Positions 4,458-31,086 of a stretch of 64,000 nt of DNA are shown here, piece by piece. Every line of letters starts with the position of its first letter. Position 1 is the stretch's first letter. The position numbers and the translations under genes are program-made. This DNA is from Spizellomyces punctatus DAOM BR117 (Eukaryota), in NCBI GenBank assembly GCA_000182565.2, contig KQ257463.1. The stretch is one strand, 5' to 3'. Under the pieces are notes generated by a model. The model was not told where the DNA came from. It ran no database searches and worked only from the letters and a program-made list of their open reading frames with translations.

Positions 4458-7400
4458 ATGGTCGCGGATAACGGGCCAAGGCGTGCCAGTGCACAGAAGC
4501 GAAGTGTAACAAATGGAGAAACCTCGTCCAAACCCTCGACACCGTCTTCTACTTTGCACAAGTTCTTTCAACGAAAGGGAGCGGATTCTTCCTCGCCAAC
4601 TCCTGAGCGAACAGGTAAAAGAACGACGTTGATAAATGTCTCCTCTGGGTGAATGATCGAATGCTCACCGCTGTATTCGTATTCCTTCTCAGTTGTCGAA
4701 GGTACACTTCATGTCGCATCCGAGAGTAGTACCCAAGAAAGCGGTCTGGACCAAGACAGGGCAAGCGAGGCGAAGACTGCAAAGAAGCGCAAAGAACCCA
4801 ACGAATTAAACGAAATCCCGAGGCCGTCCGGCACCGTTCGTGAAGCAGTCTCTCCAACGCAGATTGATCAGGAAACATCCACCATATTAGCAACAGAACA
4901 TTCGTCACGTAAAAAGCAGAAACTCCAGCATGAACATGGGAAAGAAGGAGATACAGCACCGTTTCCGGTCGATATCAGCAAGGGGAAAGTCGTATTTTTA
5001 GAAAAGAAGATGAATTTCTCAAGGCATCCGTCGACTGTGTCCGAGCTGGCTGCCTTTTTCGAATTTAAGCAGGAACAGAGTTCAGCTGCATTGGACGAAA
5101 TACCATCGCAATTCCGAGGCCTCTTGGCGAAATTAATAGAGGAAAGTCCCCTCGAGCTGCAGATGTTGGCTGAAAGCGTTAGGGAAGCGCTCTGTCCCCC
5201 TTCCTTTGATGACCAGGAGGAAGATGAAGATTTTATTCGGTCCGAGTCGATCCAAGCTGGGATCCAAGCGATCGCAGAACGGCAAAATTATGGCATACAA
5301 TGGAGAGGCTCCACTTGCCCGAAATTGGCAGTCTGGCGATGGGAAGTGCAAGATCTATCCTTATTCACCAGTGAAATGGCGGATCACATTCGTCAAAGAC
5401 GGGCAAAACGACGCCAGGCAGCTAGGATTTTGCACGACATTTTCGAAAAACTTTCTGTGGAAGAACAAACGAAATTGCTACCCGGCGACTGTAGTCCGCG
5501 TAATGACCAGAAGAGGGTGGAGGCAGAAGCCAGAAATGCTGCCAGATTAGCTGAAAAAGACGCGAAATTGAAGTTGAAGGAACAGAGAGCTGCTGAAAAG
5601 GCTGCGGAAAAAGCTGAGAGAGAAAGGAAAGCGGCAGAAAAAGCGGCGGAAAAGGTCGAGAAGGAACGAATAGCGGCGGAGAAAAAGGCTGAGAAGGAGA
5701 GGAAAGTCGCAGAGAAAAAGGCGGAGAAGGAGAAATTGGAGGCAGAAAAGCAGGCAGCCCGAGAAGCGGAGGAGGCAGCAAAGGCCAAACAGTTGAGTAT
5801 CGCAGGGTTTTTCTCGCGCCGAAAGAAAGACGAGACGAAAGAAGAATTACCGGTGCCAGTTAAATCAGAAACGCAGACCTTCTGGGAACATTTCCCGCCG
5901 TTCCATAAAAAGGAGCGAGTCTTCCATGCTCCTTATAATAGGTTCTGGAGAGAATTGCCACCAGACATTGTTGACACCCTGTTCAAGGATGAGGAAGTCT
6001 CATTACCATGCTTTCCTCGCATCATCAATGGAACGGCTCAGCAATCTGAGGGAAAACCTACGGATGCTATGGATATAGATAAAGATGATACTCTGAGCAC
6101 ACTTGGAAAGGTGAAGTGGAAGTTACTGCAATTTCACGAGAACTTTCGGCCAGCGTACTGGGGAACATGGTCAAAGAAAAGCACTCGGGTTACGGGGAGA
6201 AGACCTTTTGCCAAAGACATCGACCTGCTGGAGTATGATTATGACAGCGAAGCAGAGTGGGAGGAGGAAGAACCTGGGGAAGAGCTGCGGAGTGATGATG
6301 AGGATGAGGAGGACGGGTCAGAGGTGGGCGATGCCGATGAGGACGAGGTATTTTTCGTGCAGTCTACACACACGGATAAACTCTTTATAAACGGACGTGA
6401 TCTTAGGATAATTGGTTGGTTCCACATGGCTACTTGTCAGATGATGAAGGGGTGGAGAAGGATGCGGAAGATGAAGTGGAGGCCATCAAGCGTGAGTGGA
6501 GACTTTCAACATCAAATCAAACACCTTCCACATACGTAATTTGCTATTGAACACTGCTAGGCGCTCAACAAATTGTCCCAACATCCAAACGAGCAAAGGA
6601 GCGACCAAAATGGGGCGTGCTGGCAGCCTTGGTTCCCGATATAAAAGGACCTCATTTGGTTAATGCGTACGAGGTGGACGATACGACACACCCGTTGAGT
6701 CAGTATCGTGCGCAATCTCTCCTGGGTAAGGGTCCTTCATTTGATAACAAAATACGTTGATCAAGCCGTGGTAACCCGCACCCGGTCAGATATCTGCGTG
6801 AACATTGACCCGTTCGAAAGTGGTGCAATGAAAGAGGACCCACAGACTGTACTTGATAATGGTACAGTAAAAGATACGACGGTGAGGAAAACTCCCGGAA
6901 GCAAGAAGGCAGCTTTCCCAGAGGAACGCATTTCGGAATTGATTCAGGTAATGGCATTCCTTGATATACACTTTATGCTTTGCCTTTGTTGATAAGCAAT
7001 CTCAACTGCAGATGATCTCCGGGCGGACCGAAGGAATATCTAAATTGGTGGATGAAATCAAGAGCAGGTATGTTACTATTGTTGCCCCACGTCAATAGTC
7101 TATTCTTGCCAGTAAATAATAGAAACTTGGATACTGTAGATGCCCCGAAGTCTCCAAAGCGCAAATTGAAGCAAAGATAAGAGAAGTGGCAGTGAGGGAA
7201 AAGCAAGGAAATGATCAGGTAGGTATAGTACTGGAATGTTTGGAAACACTTTCGGTTGCAGGTTAACTGTCATGCCACGGTTGCAGAAACCGCGCTGGCA
7301 TATTCGGGATGGCACTCGTTCTGTGGTAAGATCGGCGGTGGCAGTGATTTGCATACCGGTCATGTCTGACTATTGGTTATAGGCATCCCTACCCGGGACG

Positions 7401-27651: not shown

Positions 27652-28926
27652 TTAACTGAGGGTATCGTCGGTGTACATTGGGAAGTCGGGACCATCTGCC
27701 GGGGAGCCGATAACGGAGGGCATCGTCGGTGCACTGTTGACTTGATTACAGGGTTGCAGCGACGTTCTCGGTCCCTTAGGTACAAGTCTACGGCTTGATA
27801 ATAATTGTAACTGTATTGTAATTGTTAATTTTTTCCTGTCTGTTGTGTATCGCTATAATATATTGGACTTGTCTTCTGAGCTCTCGTATATGTCATTTTG
27901 AGCATTTCCCTCATCTTCTTGCTAATGAGTAAACTTGTTTGGTGTTCAATCATGTCAGCAGGTCCTAGTTCGCTACCAGCAAGCAAATCTGCCAACGTAC
28001 TGTATATCCACTTGGCTGTCCCATAGATGAATTCGATATAGGTCGCTTGTTGCTCAGTTCGATAAAATATCCCCTAGATTATGAACAAGGCCGCAAGCTG
28101 CCCCTATGTCTCTCTTAAACGTGTCGTAATGCGTTCTTCCCTCGTTTTCACACGATATTTGTCGAGTACTGTAACCAACACTGCAACGAAGATATCAACC
28201 ATGCTGCTAACGTGACTGATACGTTCAATGCATTGCAATCTTGACGATTGACTTGAGGAGTATGTCACTTATTCAGGATGTATGTTCGAGACCCGACAAT
28301 GGTTGAAATTGCAATGGCCAAAGTTTTTTATTCTATCTCATGCATTCTTGTAAGGCAAGCCCTGAAAGTGCTCAACTTTGAACTGAACCGCACATTGGTA
28401 CGATTGCCTTGTTATGGCCTGTCCTCTATTGATAGATAAACACGGCAGAGGAAAAAGATCCGCACGTTAGCCAATGGGGTTTTTCGGACCTGGGACAAGT
28501 ATTTTGTGCGAGATAGTGGGCCTAAAAGTGTGCACCTATCCATACGTTTGCTGGAAATATGACAACACAACGAAAAAACTTGAGCAGAAACTGATGCCGT
28601 CAATTCCGCAAAAGGGACCGGAAGTAGTCTTCTTTGCGGATGTACTAGAACCTCTTGTATGGTAGTGGTGCACATGACACCTTGGTAATTTAGAATTACA
28701 GAAGTATTTCACCTTTGCTAGAACACAGCCCAAGACTTGATAGAGGTGGACGCGAGAGCTTGCAAAAGTATTTTTTACAAGATTAAGGGACTGAAAGTAT
28801 TCAGCTATCCATCTATTTGCTAGAAATATGTCGACACGACAAAAGAACAAGGCATCTTCAAATTGAACCGCATGTTCCCGTACGTTAAACAAGTACTTTA
28901 ACTCTTGCAACTTTTTGCAGAGAGAG

Positions 28927-28933
28927 AAAAAAA
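28927..28933 (-). terminator. Pol III terminator (T7) for tRNA-Pro
   Basis: Run of 7 T on the minus strand ~22 nt downstream of the tRNA 3' end. Confidence 0.7.
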
Positions 28934-28954
28934 GGATCCCAAGCGGCACTTAAG

Positions 28955-29026
28955 GGGTTCTTCCGGGGATCGAACCCGGGACCTCCTGCACCCGACGCAG
29001 GAATCATGCCGCTAGACCAAAGAACC
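28955..29026 (-). tRNA. tRNA-Pro(CGG), intronless
   Basis: Acceptor stem GGTTCTT/AAGAACC, A-box TGGTCTAGCGG, anticodon arm CCTGC-GTCGGGT-GCAGG, T arm CCGGG-TTCGATC-CCCGG, discriminator C. G at position 32 is atypical. Confidence 0.9.
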
Positions 29027-29550
29027 CTATGAATTCCATACCAAATCATGCAGGAATCATGCCTCTCGACCAAAGAACCATCTTGATTTGCATGTAACCT
29101 ACGCAGGAATCATGCCACTAGACCAAAGAACCCTATGAATTCCATACCAAATCATGCAGGAATCATGCCTCTCGACCAAAGAACCATCTTGATTTGCATG
29201 TAACCTACGCAGGAATCATGCCGCTAGACCAAAGAACCCTATGAATTCCATACCAAATCATGCAGGAATCATGCCTCTCGACCAAAGAACCATCTTGATT
29301 TGCATGTAACCTACGCAGGAATCATGCCGCTAGACCAAAGAACCCTATGAATTCCATACCAAATCATGCAGGAATCATGCCTCTCGACCAAAGAACCATC
29401 TTGATTTGCATGTAACCTACGCAGGAATCATGCCGCTAGACCAAAGAACCCTATGAATTCCATACCAAATCATGCAGGAATCATGCCTCTCGACCAAAGA
29501 ACCATCTTGATTTGCATGTAACCTATGCAGGAATCATGCCCCTAGGTCAA
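28995..29550 (-). repeat. Tandem array of tRNA-Pro 5' halves: 5 x 106 bp (2 x 53 bp subunits) plus a degenerate partial unit
   Basis: Units start at 28995, 29101, 29207, 29313, 29419 and 29525. Each contains two copies of tRNA nt 1-30. Confidence 0.95.
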
Positions 29551-29731
29551 TGATGAAAGTGTACCATGCATATATTGTTGAATCGCATGTAAACTCCATA
29601 CCTTTTGAAGGTCACATTAATGTGTTCTCAAACAAGAGAAACCTGGTTGAAGACTAAGGCTCGCGGTGGTAGGCCAGTTCAATGTGGGCTTCCTTGAAAG
29701 ATATAAGATGCTGCTAGGAAAACTTTTGTCT

Positions 29732-30037
29732 ACAGAAATCTTACTACAATACATATTCATAGAAGTTGTAGGGCGAATATGTTTTTACATGGTCTATAAC
29801 TTTGATCACATAAGTAAACCCATTCGAGCAACTTTCATGGGCTATGCTCAACCGGAATCGTACCTCTTCTCAACGGTAATTACCTGGTCAGGATGAGGCT
29901 CGCGGACAGAATTCTTTTACTACAATACATGTTAATAAAAGTCGTAGGGCAAATATGTTTTTACATGGCTGGTAGTTTAGATCGTATAAGAAAACCCATT
30001 GGAGCGACTTTCATGTATACCATTACAACTCGTATCG
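29732..30037. repeat. Diverged direct duplication (~130 bp, period ~174)
   Basis: acagaa..ttactacaatacat...gtagggc.aatatgtttttacatgg...aaacccatt.gagc.actttcatg occurs at 29732 and 29906. Confidence 0.75.
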
Positions 30038-30468
30038 AATATTTGATCGGACAAAGCATAGCAGGAACACTGCAATGCGTGCGTTAACCAGGTTTGATGT
30101 ATGGCCTACTTGAATAGTTGAATGATGGCAACCACAACACACCACCTTCAAACCCGCTGCTATGCTTGTCCGATCAATTATTCGATACGAGTTGTATCTT
30201 AGGGGTAGGGATTGGAAAAGTCTTGTTGAGGGCTGCAAACCCCATTTCTCACTTCCGACAAACAGTTATAGTGCGAATGCTCCCTCAATAAAAAAACTCT
30301 ATATGTAGTAATTACATCTGAGGGATTGCTCCCTGTAATTTCAAAACCAGCTCTTTCTGTCTGCTCCCTACTCCCTTCATTGTTTCTGCGTTCTGTCTTT
30401 ATCCCTACTGCTAACGGCTATTCGACCACCATGTCAAACATCCAACAAGCGGAACCCGTTCTCACCCG

Positions 30469-31086
30469 CAGCCCACAGAAATAACACCGCTACTTGCCAC
30501 CCAACGTCGACGTCGTTTCTCCCTCATAGATGCCCTCAATGTAGTGACAAGGCCGGCTGTGAATGTGTTCAAGCAAGACCGGCGGGCCCTCTCTCCAGAG
30601 AGAGCAGCCGAGGAAATAGCTGCGGCAGCTGAAGCCACTGCAGCGACGAGTGAGGTTGGTGCCCGAGAGCGTCGGTGACTGAGATCATAGAATATCTCGA
30701 ATTTCTAGCGACAAAAATCGCCCATCCATTCGCACCAACCTCGCCGCCCACTTGGGGAGGGAGACTTGACATTGTAACAGTACAGCCCACAGAAATAACA
30801 CCACTACTTGCCACCCAACATCGATGTCGTTTCTCCCTCATAGATGCCCTCAATGTAGTGACGAGGCCGGCTGTGAATGCGTTCAAGCAAGACCGGCAGG
30901 CCCTCTCTCCAGAGAGAGCAGCCGAGGAAATAGCTGCGGCAGCTGAAGCCACTGCAGCGACGAGTGAGGTTGGTGCCCGAGAGCATCAGCGACCGAGATC
31001 GTGGAATATCTCGAATTTCTAGCGACAAAAATCGCCCATCCATTCACACCAACCTCGCCGCCCACTTGGGGAGGGAGACTTGACAT
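30469..31086 (+). repeat. Near-identical tandem duplication (period 314 bp) in a frameshifted ORF remnant
   Basis: cagcccacagaaataacacc... occurs at 30469 and 30783, and both units end gggagacttgacat. Confidence 0.9.

What the first reader, a model, noticed from the sequence alone, without database searches (positions are those of the whole stretch)
28955..29600. tRNA-Pro(CGG) preceded by an ordered array of ten tRNA 5' halves with exact 53-nt spacing
Seen (minus strand): each 106-bp unit is half A (tRNA nt 1-35, ending in AGG at the anticodon position) + 18 nt + half B (nt 1-30, 28/30 identical to A) + 23 nt, so both subunits are exactly 53 nt. Each intact half starts at the mature +1 (GGTTCTT) and stops at the anticodon loop; the most distal half is degenerate. 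The tRNA-derived 30 nt are much better conserved between A and B than the other 23 nt. There is only one 3' half/B-box, and no T-run longer than 3 before the T7 terminator. Established: the A-box lies in the 5' half, and 5' tRNA halves are known regulatory RNAs. Inference: this could be a genomically encoded source of 5' halves, a multi-A-box Pol III promoter or insulator, or the scar of repeated recombination at the tRNA.
Basis: partly seen in the sequence, partly recalled or inferred. Interest (0 to 1): 0.8.

Follow-up and report, generated by a model that had tools for sequence, protein, structure and literature searches.

The report
Tandem dead tRNA-Pro front halves
In front of a proline tRNA gene of a chytrid fungus, the gene's first 30 or so bases plus a short flank have been copied head to tail ten times; this is most likely a young, functionless tandem repeat, not a new RNA-making device.

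Summary
On the minus strand, tRNA-Pro(CGG) (29026-28955) is preceded by nine intact copies of its 5' part and one degenerate copy. Their start points are exactly 53 nt apart. They form a 106-bp higher-order repeat of 5.2 copies at 99% identity.

The organism is a chytrid fungus. Read contigs from what may be the source sample contain the head-to-tail junctions, so the tandem structure is not an assembly artefact.

The halves each carry an A-box-like motif. They have no B box, no terminator and no RNA structure beyond shuffled controls, and the lack of T-runs is not significant. Published work shows that A-only DNA hardly binds TFIIIC (PMC11724288).

My reading, at about 0.7: a young non-coding minisatellite. 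It arose by partial tandem duplication of the gene's 5' part plus its 5' flank, and was then amplified by unequal exchange or replication slippage.

The better conservation of the tRNA-derived part (28/30 against 8-12/23) fits gene conversion with, or descent from, functional tRNA-Pro paralogues. One paralogue with the second spacer type as its 5' flank appears in the reads.

No RNA data or related genomes were available, so expression and conservation remain untested. Interest is modest.

The parts
28955..29026 (-). Intact tRNA-Pro(CGG) gene. Its first 32 nt are also the last, partial unit of the repeat tract.
   Evidence: ARAGORN; Rfam RF00005 at 48.6 bits, E 4.5e-09; Tandem Repeats Finder tract begins at 28995.
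28966..28976 (-). The only B box (GGTTCGATCCC) at this locus.
   Evidence: Regex scan. No other copy of the 3' half in the 64 kb on either strand.
28927..28933 (-). T7 run, the presumed Pol III terminator, 21 nt after the tRNA 3' end.
   Evidence: It is the only T-run of 4 or more on this strand between 29700 and 28900.
29027..29132 (-). 106-nt unit 1 (proximal): A half with T16 (TCTAGTGG), then the beta tail, then a B half, then the alpha tail that forms the gene's immediate 5' flank.
   Evidence: One difference from the other units (C16T).
29133..29450 (-). 106-nt units 2 to 4, identical to each other.
   Evidence: no differences; 99% matches.
29451..29556 (-). Distal unit: a degenerate A-like half (29556-29504, 23/30 to the tRNA, 8 differences in its first 31 nt) followed by an intact B half and alpha tail.
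   Evidence: Contig X3 record 16 runs from unique upstream DNA into this unit without any difference.
29578..29595 (-). Possible older relic of the beta spacer (15/18 match), out of register with the array.
   Evidence: Local alignment. 9 of 300 shuffles score as well, so this is weak.

Best explanation
This is a young, non-coding higher-order minisatellite made of dead fragments of a nuclear tRNA-Pro gene.

Inferred history: a segment running from about 22 bp upstream of the mature 5' end to the anticodon loop (53 bp) was duplicated in tandem at the DNA level. Two diverged 53-bp versions, A with the beta tail and B with the alpha tail, came to lie side by side. The 106-bp dimer was then amplified very recently to about five copies, by unequal sister-chromatid exchange or replication slippage.

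tRNA genes are known replication barriers and fragile sites in yeast, which makes such accidents likely at this place. Only the intact gene at the proximal end has the full Pol III promoter (A box plus B box) and a terminator. The halves are probably passengers.

The tRNA-derived 30 nt are better conserved between A and B than the tails. I attribute this to gene conversion with functional tRNA-Pro genes, or descent from two of them, and not to selection on the halves.

Shown: the anatomy, the missing B box and terminator, the lack of RNA structure, and the presence of the tandem junctions in reads. Inferred: the duplication mechanism, the gene-conversion explanation, and the lack of function.
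For: (1) Exact 53-nt phasing, 106-bp period, 5.2 copies at 99% identity. Three units are identical, one differs at 1 base, and the edge copy is decayed. This is the usual picture of a recently amplified tandem array.

(2) Each unit includes the 22-23 nt flank 5' of the mature tRNA end, and the tract runs in register into the gene's first 32 nt. This points to DNA-level duplication and not retroposed RNA.

(3) Neither 106 nor 53 is a multiple of 3, so the repeat is not a coding repeat (sequence).

(4) All ten A-box-like sites fit the TNGNNNANNNG query of PMC11724288. There is one B box, one 3' half and one terminator.

(5) PMC11724288 (passages read) reports nanomolar affinity for the B box and micromolar for the A box. 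A-only DNA almost abolishes TFIIIC binding, natural A-B spacing is 31-93 bp, and pseudo-A-boxes cannot replace the real one.

(6) Unit RNAs fold no better than shuffles, with z from -0.18 to -0.37.

(7) Read contigs of 136 and 135 nt match the array with no difference and span more than one full unit, so both junction types exist in reads. Their depths are 16.6 against about 3 in the flanks, and 11 against about 2.4. This is a rough hint of about 5 copies and may come from the source sample.

(8) One contig (X5 record 19) is another tRNA-Pro locus. It has a different 3' flank and its own T-run, and its 18-nt 5' flank equals the beta spacer with one change. The two spacer types therefore look like 5' flanks of paralogous genes.

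(9) The same 3-kb gene-poor stretch holds other tandem and dispersed repeats: a 314 bp x 2 duplication, and 99-nt and 93-nt repeat pairs. It is a locally duplication-prone region.

(10) The abstracts of PMC8998199, PMC7073672 and PMC13475603 (search listings only) name tRNA genes as replication barriers or fragile sites.
Against: The tRNA-derived 30 nt are far better conserved between A and B (28/30) than the tails (8/23 ungapped, 12/23 gapped; Fisher p 1e-5 and 9e-4). This is also what selection on the halves would give. My gene-conversion or paralogue explanation rests on one low-depth contig.

The reads carry unit variants absent from the window at depths of 4-7. A second array, allelic or at another locus, probably exists. 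If arrays persist at several loci, that would argue for maintenance.

No RNA data, no Pol III occupancy data and no related genome could be examined, so lack of function is an inference.

The TFIIIC biochemistry comes from budding yeast and human, not from chytrids.
Confidence: 0.7

Rival explanations
1. The array is a cis-acting Pol III element. The extra A boxes would shift or multiply start sites, recruit tauA and TFIIIB, or act as a boundary, so tuning expression of the downstream tRNA-Pro gene.
For: All ten sites keep the four conserved A-box positions. The proximal B half puts a second A box 53 bp further from the only B box, roughly at the upper edge of the natural 31-93 bp spacing quoted in PMC11724288. 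The tRNA-derived part is conserved between A and B.
Against: There is no B box in any half. In yeast, A-only DNA almost abolishes TFIIIC binding and upstream pseudo-A-boxes were judged non-functional (PMC11724288). ETC and insulator sites depend on B boxes (same paper, introduction). Units more than one step upstream lie far outside the known A-B spacing.
Confidence: 0.1
2. The array is a genomically encoded source of tRNA-Pro 5' halves. It would be transcribed as a long T-run-free leader, or by Pol II read-through, and cut into half-sized RNAs. These would act like known 5' tRNA halves, for example by feedback on tDNA transcription or as tRNase ZL guide RNAs.
For: There is no T-run of 4 or more from 29700 to the gene's terminator. 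The tRNA-derived part is conserved. 5' halves have known activities (abstracts of PMC8604414 and PMC2691602, search listings). Unit variants in the reads suggest more than one array.
Against: The halves have no promoter of their own. The missing T-runs are expected by chance (36% of shuffles, 57% of windows). The units have no RNA structure beyond shuffles. From recalled knowledge, RNase P needs the folded acceptor and T arms, which a half lacks, so precise release at each +1 position has no obvious route. No paper describing such loci turned up in 5 searches.
Confidence: 0.07
3. The halves are scars of repeated integration and excision of a mobile element that targets the tRNA gene.
For: Partial tRNA copies at tRNA genes are the hallmark of integrase att sites in prokaryotes, and earlier scan notes list many prokaryotic cases (unchecked). 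A MITE-like inverted repeat lies about 1 kb upstream.
Against: The spacers are only 18-23 nt with no cargo, and the phasing is exact at 53 nt. Units are identical, which fits amplification and not independent events. The spacers are related to each other and to tRNA 5' flanks. I recall no eukaryotic element that duplicates tRNA 5' halves.
Confidence: 0.03
4. The array, or its copy number, is an assembly or polishing artefact.
For: No single read contig spans the array. Contigs that carry the window's own 3' flank show T in place of C at tRNA nt 16, and T in place of G at sequence nt 31, which is canonical position 32 (X1 record 1, X2 record 6). Some bases of the window in or next to the repeat may therefore be mis-polished.
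Against: Contigs of 136 and 135 nt with no difference span more than one unit, so both junction types are in the reads. Other contigs enter the array from unique DNA on each side: X3 record 16 distally, and X1 record 1 and X2 record 6 proximally. The depth ratio of about 5 agrees with the assembled copy number.
Confidence: 0.05

Closest known systems
Minisatellites and higher-order tandem repeats in eukaryotic nuclear DNA
   Same: Head-to-tail non-coding units. A dimeric higher-order unit (2 x 53 = 106 bp). Near-identity of inner copies with a decayed edge copy. Sequence variants in reads.
   Different: The unit is a recognisable fragment of a Pol III gene, in register with the intact gene that ends the array. 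My 5 literature searches found no description of such a tRNA-half array in a eukaryotic nucleus.
E. coli tRNA-linked repeats (TLRs; PMC8144298, passages read)
   Same: Short partial copies of a tRNA or rRNA gene end, repeated one to five times next to the intact gene, each with a unique tail. Those in tRNA operons have no known function.
   Different: TLRs copy 18-19 bp of the 3' end and lie downstream within bacterial operons, where they are co-transcribed. Here 30-35 nt of the 5' end lie upstream of a eukaryotic Pol III gene with an internal promoter.
Truncated pseudogene in the Xenopus oocyte 5S DNA repeat
   Same: A partial, 5'-derived tandem copy of a Pol III gene next to the intact gene, regarded as a duplication by-product.
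   Different: That case has one pseudogene per large repeat unit that also contains the whole gene. Here only the half is amplified.
Entamoeba tRNA gene arrays with short tandem repeats (PMC2652664, abstract and two passages)
   Same: A eukaryotic tRNA locus combined with tandem repeats that vary in copy number.
   Different: In Entamoeba whole tRNA genes are arrayed and the short tandem repeats are unrelated short motifs between the genes. The passage I read reports no clear evidence that any arrayed gene copy is a non-functional pseudogene.
Prokaryotic 5'-half tRNA copies upstream of tRNA genes
   Same: Truncated 5' copies, broken near the anticodon loop, lying in tandem upstream of the intact gene.
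   Different: Those cases mostly carry hairpin modules or nuclease genes and occur in bacteria or archaea. Here no hairpin module was found and the host is a fungus.

Membership tests
Minisatellite / higher-order tandem repeat | Head-to-tail copies of a unit of tens of bp, two or more copies, above chance | tested here: met
   Tandem Repeats Finder: period 106, 5.2 copies, 99%, score 1081. Exact 53-nt phasing.
Minisatellite / higher-order tandem repeat | Non-coding | tested here: met
   106 and 53 are not multiples of 3. ORFs in and around the region gave no Pfam hit, 0 of 10.
Minisatellite / higher-order tandem repeat | Copy-number or sequence polymorphism between individuals | tested here: inconclusive
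   Unit variants absent from the window are present in read contigs at depths 4-7. Whether they are allelic or paralogous is unknown.
Independent Pol III type 2 transcription unit (tRNA-like gene) | A box | tested here: met
   All nine intact halves fit TNGNNNANNNG and a tRNA A-box-like regex.
Independent Pol III type 2 transcription unit (tRNA-like gene) | B box 31-93 bp downstream of the A box | tested here: not met
   One B box and one 3' half, both in the intact gene.
Independent Pol III type 2 transcription unit (tRNA-like gene) | Own T-run terminator | tested here: not met
   No T-run of 4 or more inside the array.
tRNA-derived SINE | Dispersed copies with a full internal promoter, a tRNA-unrelated body and a 3' tail | tested here: not met
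   Copies lie only in the tandem tract of this window. They have no B box and no tail.
Integrase att-site partial tRNA duplication | Partial tRNA copies bracket an inserted element carrying recombinase or cargo genes | tested here: not met
   Only 18-23 nt lie between halves.
Split or permuted tRNA genes | Separately encoded 3' halves that complete the 5' halves | tested here: not met
   No further 3' half at 72% identity or more on either strand of the 64 kb. The rest of the genome was not available.
ETC site / tDNA insulator | B box bound by TFIIIC | tested here: not met
   No B box in the halves. Occupancy is not testable with these tools.
E. coli tRNA-linked repeats | 18-19 bp identical to the 3' end of the upstream tRNA or rRNA gene, within a bacterial operon | tested here: not met
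   Here the 5' end is copied, it lies upstream, and the host is a eukaryote.

The most novel reading that the evidence does not exclude
Arrays of tRNA-Pro 5' halves are a maintained feature of more than one tRNA-Pro locus in this chytrid. They would be transcribed as a long leader free of terminators, from upstream initiation or read-through into the gene's T7 terminator. They would yield half-sized RNAs that act like known 5' tRNA halves, through feedback on tDNA transcription or as guides for tRNase ZL-type cleavage. The tRNA-derived 30 nt would be kept by selection. That would be the first case of 5' halves encoded as such in a genome and not cut from mature tRNA.
Probability: 0.06. Interest if true: 0.8.

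Novelty: new member of a known kind. Interest (0 to 1): 0.3.

Why it matters
If the ordinary reading holds, this is a clean natural example of how a Pol III gene can seed a minisatellite. It has a readable history: a 53-bp duplication, divergence, then amplification of the dimer.

It is also a caution for annotation and polishing. The intact gene's 5' part is nearly identical to the many halves. The window's unusual G at canonical position 32 may be a polishing error.

If the halves turned out to be expressed, the locus would bear on the open question of whether tRNA halves can be produced by routes other than cleavage of mature tRNA. It would also give variant-tagged halves that can be told apart from those of the mature tRNA.

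Tried and rejected
- Whole genome of the window: not held, so other tRNA loci of this organism could not be scanned.
- RNA evidence: no RNA holder listed among 14 runs.
- Related arrays elsewhere: the exact pattern of the half gave 0 hits in metagenome contigs, genome contigs and viral contigs. A looser two-half pattern with a 15-45 nt gap gave 0 hits in metagenome contigs. These collections hold few or no chytrid genomes, so this says little.
- Earlier scan notes: nothing for this genome or sequence. Only prokaryotic analogues and unrelated chytrid mitochondrial notes came up.
- Rfam at gathering threshold over the whole window returned nothing, not even the tRNA. The local E-value search found it. 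The only other match there was a chance sX4 hit at 18 bits against a threshold of 70.
- RNA folds of the units and of a hypothetical precursor starting at the proximal B half were not better than shuffles, with z from -0.18 to -0.99.
- Bacterial-type promoter and terminator scan: nothing relevant.
- T-run-free leader argument: rejected as not significant.
- Degenerate older units beyond the array: only one weak 15/18 match upstream (9 of 300 shuffles as good) and nothing significant downstream (26 of 300).
- Helenus-type LTR elements with tRNA-like sequences (PMC10886601, passages): not applicable, since this array is tandem, has no LTR structure, and lies adjacent to the gene.
- Mitochondrial control-region repeat models (PMC3599147, passages): only a loose analogy of pausing plus misalignment.
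- Parts of the array without contig cover in individual runs are not used as evidence.

Full report
**What is there**

On the minus strand the window holds a single tRNA gene, tRNA-Pro(CGG), at 29026-28955 (ARAGORN; Rfam tRNA 48.6 bits, E 4.5e-09). A T7 run lies 21 nt downstream at 28933-28927.

Directly upstream, the decamer that opens the tRNA recurs at 29079, 29132, 29185, 29238, 29291, 29344, 29397, 29450 and 29503. The spacing is exactly 53 nt.

Two subunit types alternate:
- The A type (4 copies) equals the window's tRNA over nt 1-32. It then reads AGG where the gene has the anticodon CGG (34/35 overall), followed by an 18-nt tail that I call beta.
- The B type (5 copies) equals the tRNA at 28 of its first 30 nt, followed by a 22-23-nt tail that I call alpha. 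The alpha tail is also the immediate 5' flank of the real gene.

A tenth, A-like copy at 29556 is decayed, at 23/30. Tandem Repeats Finder reports period 106, 5.2 copies, 99% matches and score 1081, and also period 53 at 75%. Three 106-nt units are identical, the proximal one has a single C16T change, and the distal one has 8 changes in its first 31 nt.

The copies are confined to this tract. A 14-nt core occurs 11 times with 0 mismatches in the array. The only other matches in the window are 2 with 2 mismatches each, and shuffles give 0.65. Each tail occurs 5 times, only here.

**Context**

A 628-aa open frame at 4653-6539 is a chromatin assembly factor 1 subunit A. Its best matches are to chytrid fungi: 50% identity to Phlyctochytrium arcticum and 48% to Thoreauomyces humboldtii (taxonomy). 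This rests on one protein. No whole genome is held.

The array lies in a stretch of about 3 kb (roughly 28.1-31.1 kb) without Pfam-recognisable ORFs, 0 of 10 tested. That stretch is unusually rich in other repeats: a 314 bp x 2 tandem duplication at 30469-31086, 99-nt and 93-nt repeat pairs, and a 173-bp element with 31-nt inverted ends. In the whole 64 kb, the only tandem tracts scoring above 110 are the tRNA array (two rows for one array) and the 314-bp pair. The other eight rows score 53-109 and are short.

**Is it an artefact?**

Fourteen coded runs of one coded sample were listed. Eight of them hold part of the region, and this may be the sample the window came from. I laid four of those eight.

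No contig spans the array, as expected for short reads. However, a 136-nt contig (X1 record 2) and a 135-nt contig (X5 record 22) match the array with no difference. Both are longer than one unit, so both junction types (A-beta-B and B-alpha-A) are present in the reads. The length 136 equals 106 + 31 - 1, which is what a perfect 106-bp cycle gives with 31-letter words (my inference).

Their depths are 16.6 against about 3.0 in the flanks, and 11 against about 2.4. This is a rough hint of about five copies, and the tool warns that depth is not a copy number. X3 record 16 enters the array from unique upstream DNA without any difference. X1 record 1 and X2 record 6 enter it from the 3' side. The tandem structure is real, but the exact copy number is unverified.

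**Two further things in the reads**

First, X5 record 19 is another tRNA-Pro(CGG) locus. It has an unrelated 3' flank with its own T-run. Its 18-nt 5' flank is the beta tail with one change, and its tRNA differs at two positions: T at nt 16, and T at sequence nt 31, which is canonical position 32. So alpha and beta look like the 5' flanks of two paralogous tRNA-Pro genes.

Second, several contigs at depths of 4-7 carry unit variants that the window lacks. These are the last base of alpha G to A, B nt 31 A to G, B nt 15 G to A, A nt 32 T to C, and the last base of beta T to C. A second, roughly 4% diverged array therefore probably exists, either on the other homologue or at the paralogous locus.

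The two contigs that carry the window's own 3' flank also show T16 and T at canonical position 32, where the window has C and G. From recalled knowledge, position 32 is normally a pyrimidine. The window's G may therefore be a polishing error caused by reads from the A halves. Alternatively, the contigs may be word-path chimeras with the paralogue. This remains open.

**Do the halves have what a function would need?**

All ten sites keep the four conserved A-box positions of the TNGNNNANNNG query used in PMC11724288. There is only one B box and one 3' half on that strand in the 64 kb, both in the intact gene, and there is no terminator inside the array.

In the passages I read of PMC11724288:
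- TFIIIC binds the B box with nanomolar affinity and the A box with micromolar affinity.
- A-only DNA almost abolishes binding.
- Natural A-B spacing is 31-93 bp.
- An upstream pseudo-A-box could not replace the real one, and the authors did not consider such boxes functionally relevant.

That argues against the multi-A-box promoter and against a TFIIIC-based insulator, with the caveat that the biochemistry is from yeast and human.

The absence of T-runs of 4 or more is not informative. 36% of shuffles of the unit, and 57% of 106-nt windows of this sequence, lack TTTT. Unit RNAs fold no better than shuffles, with z from -0.18 to -0.37. In a hypothetical precursor starting at the proximal B half, the copy can take the place of the real 5' half in the acceptor stem, but the fold is not significant (z -0.99). 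The periods 53 and 106 exclude a coding repeat.

**The one feature that could speak for selection**

A and B share 28/30 positions in the tRNA-derived part but only 8/23 (ungapped) or 12/23 (gapped) in the tails. The Fisher p values are 1e-5 and 9e-4.

Three explanations fit:
1. Selection on the halves.
2. Gene conversion from functional tRNA-Pro genes, limited to the homologous part.
3. Descent of A and B from two paralogous genes whose flanks had already diverged while the genes were held constant.

The paralogue with a beta-type flank favours the second or third explanation, and neither needs the halves to function. The evidence is a single low-depth contig, so I hold this with moderate confidence.

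**Most likely history and mechanism (inferred)**

A 53-bp segment, from about -22 to the anticodon loop, was duplicated at the DNA level. The unit includes sequence 5' of the mature tRNA end, so retroposition of an RNA half is unlikely. Two diverged versions became neighbours, and the 106-bp dimer was then amplified very recently by unequal exchange or slippage. The edge copy, which takes less part in homogenisation, decayed.

tRNA genes are replication barriers and fragile sites in yeast (abstracts of PMC8998199, PMC7073672 and PMC13475603, seen in search listings). That offers a reason why the breakpoints sit inside a tRNA gene.

**Comparison with what is known**

The array works like, and qualifies as, a minisatellite with higher-order structure. 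It is not an independent Pol III unit, a SINE, an att-site duplication, a split tRNA or an ETC site, because a defining feature failed in each case (see the membership table).

The nearest described analogues:
- The E. coli tRNA-linked repeats, which copy 3' ends, lie downstream and are bacterial (PMC8144298).
- The truncated 5S pseudogene of Xenopus oocyte 5S DNA (recalled, not checked here).
- Several prokaryotic 5'-half arrays noted earlier in this scan (unchecked).

Five full-text searches returned no paper describing an array of tRNA 5' halves in a eukaryotic nuclear genome. That is a statement about those searches only.

**Verdict**

This is a new member of a known kind, a gene-fragment minisatellite.

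Interest is 0.3. The locus is tidy and unusual to look at, but nothing tested here points to function. A small chance (about 0.06) remains that the halves are expressed and maintained at several loci, which would be of real interest.

Noticed in passing
window 28996 and 29011 (tRNA sequence nt 31 = canonical position 32, and nt 16): The window's tRNA has G at canonical position 32, which from recalled knowledge is unusual for a tRNA, and C16. Read contigs joined to the same 3' flank (X1 record 1, X2 record 6) show T at both positions. This may be a mis-polish by reads from the A halves, an allele, or a chimeric word path with a paralogue.
   Followed up: partly
not in the window (contig X5 record 19, laid on 28952-29026): A second tRNA-Pro(CGG) locus. 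It has a different 3' flank and T-run, and its 5' flank equals the beta spacer of the array with one change. Contigs with variant units at depths 4-7 suggest a second array.
   Followed up: partly
window 30469-31086: A 314 bp x 2 tandem duplication at 95-96% identity, about 900 bp upstream of the array. ORFs across it have no Pfam match.
   Followed up: no
window 30024-30196: A 173-bp element with 31-nt terminal inverted repeats (97% complementary), MITE-like. Many read contigs break or branch at 30022-30054, 30116, 30162 and 30196, which suggests dispersed copies in the genome. There is no second copy in the window.
   Followed up: partly
window 29741-29839 and 29917-30015; 28487-28579 and 28756-28848: Two further pairs of direct repeats (99 nt at 83%, 93 nt at 74%) flank the tRNA locus. 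The second 99-nt copy ends 8 nt short of the MITE-like element.
   Followed up: no
window 29084-29091 and each further beta spacer (minus strand): The beta spacer contains ATGCAAAT, the classical octamer motif of vertebrate snRNA and U6 enhancers (recalled). An 8-mer is expected by chance about once per strand in 64 kb, and it is probably meaningless in a fungus.
   Followed up: no
window 4653-6539: An open frame for chromatin assembly factor 1 subunit A, with imperfect 33-42-bp Lys/Glu-rich coding repeats at 5576-5746.
   Followed up: no
window 1-64000: The Rfam scan of the whole window at gathering threshold missed the tRNA, although it scores 48.6 bits against a threshold of 29. The local scan found it. 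This looks like a filter effect of the large search.
   Followed up: yes
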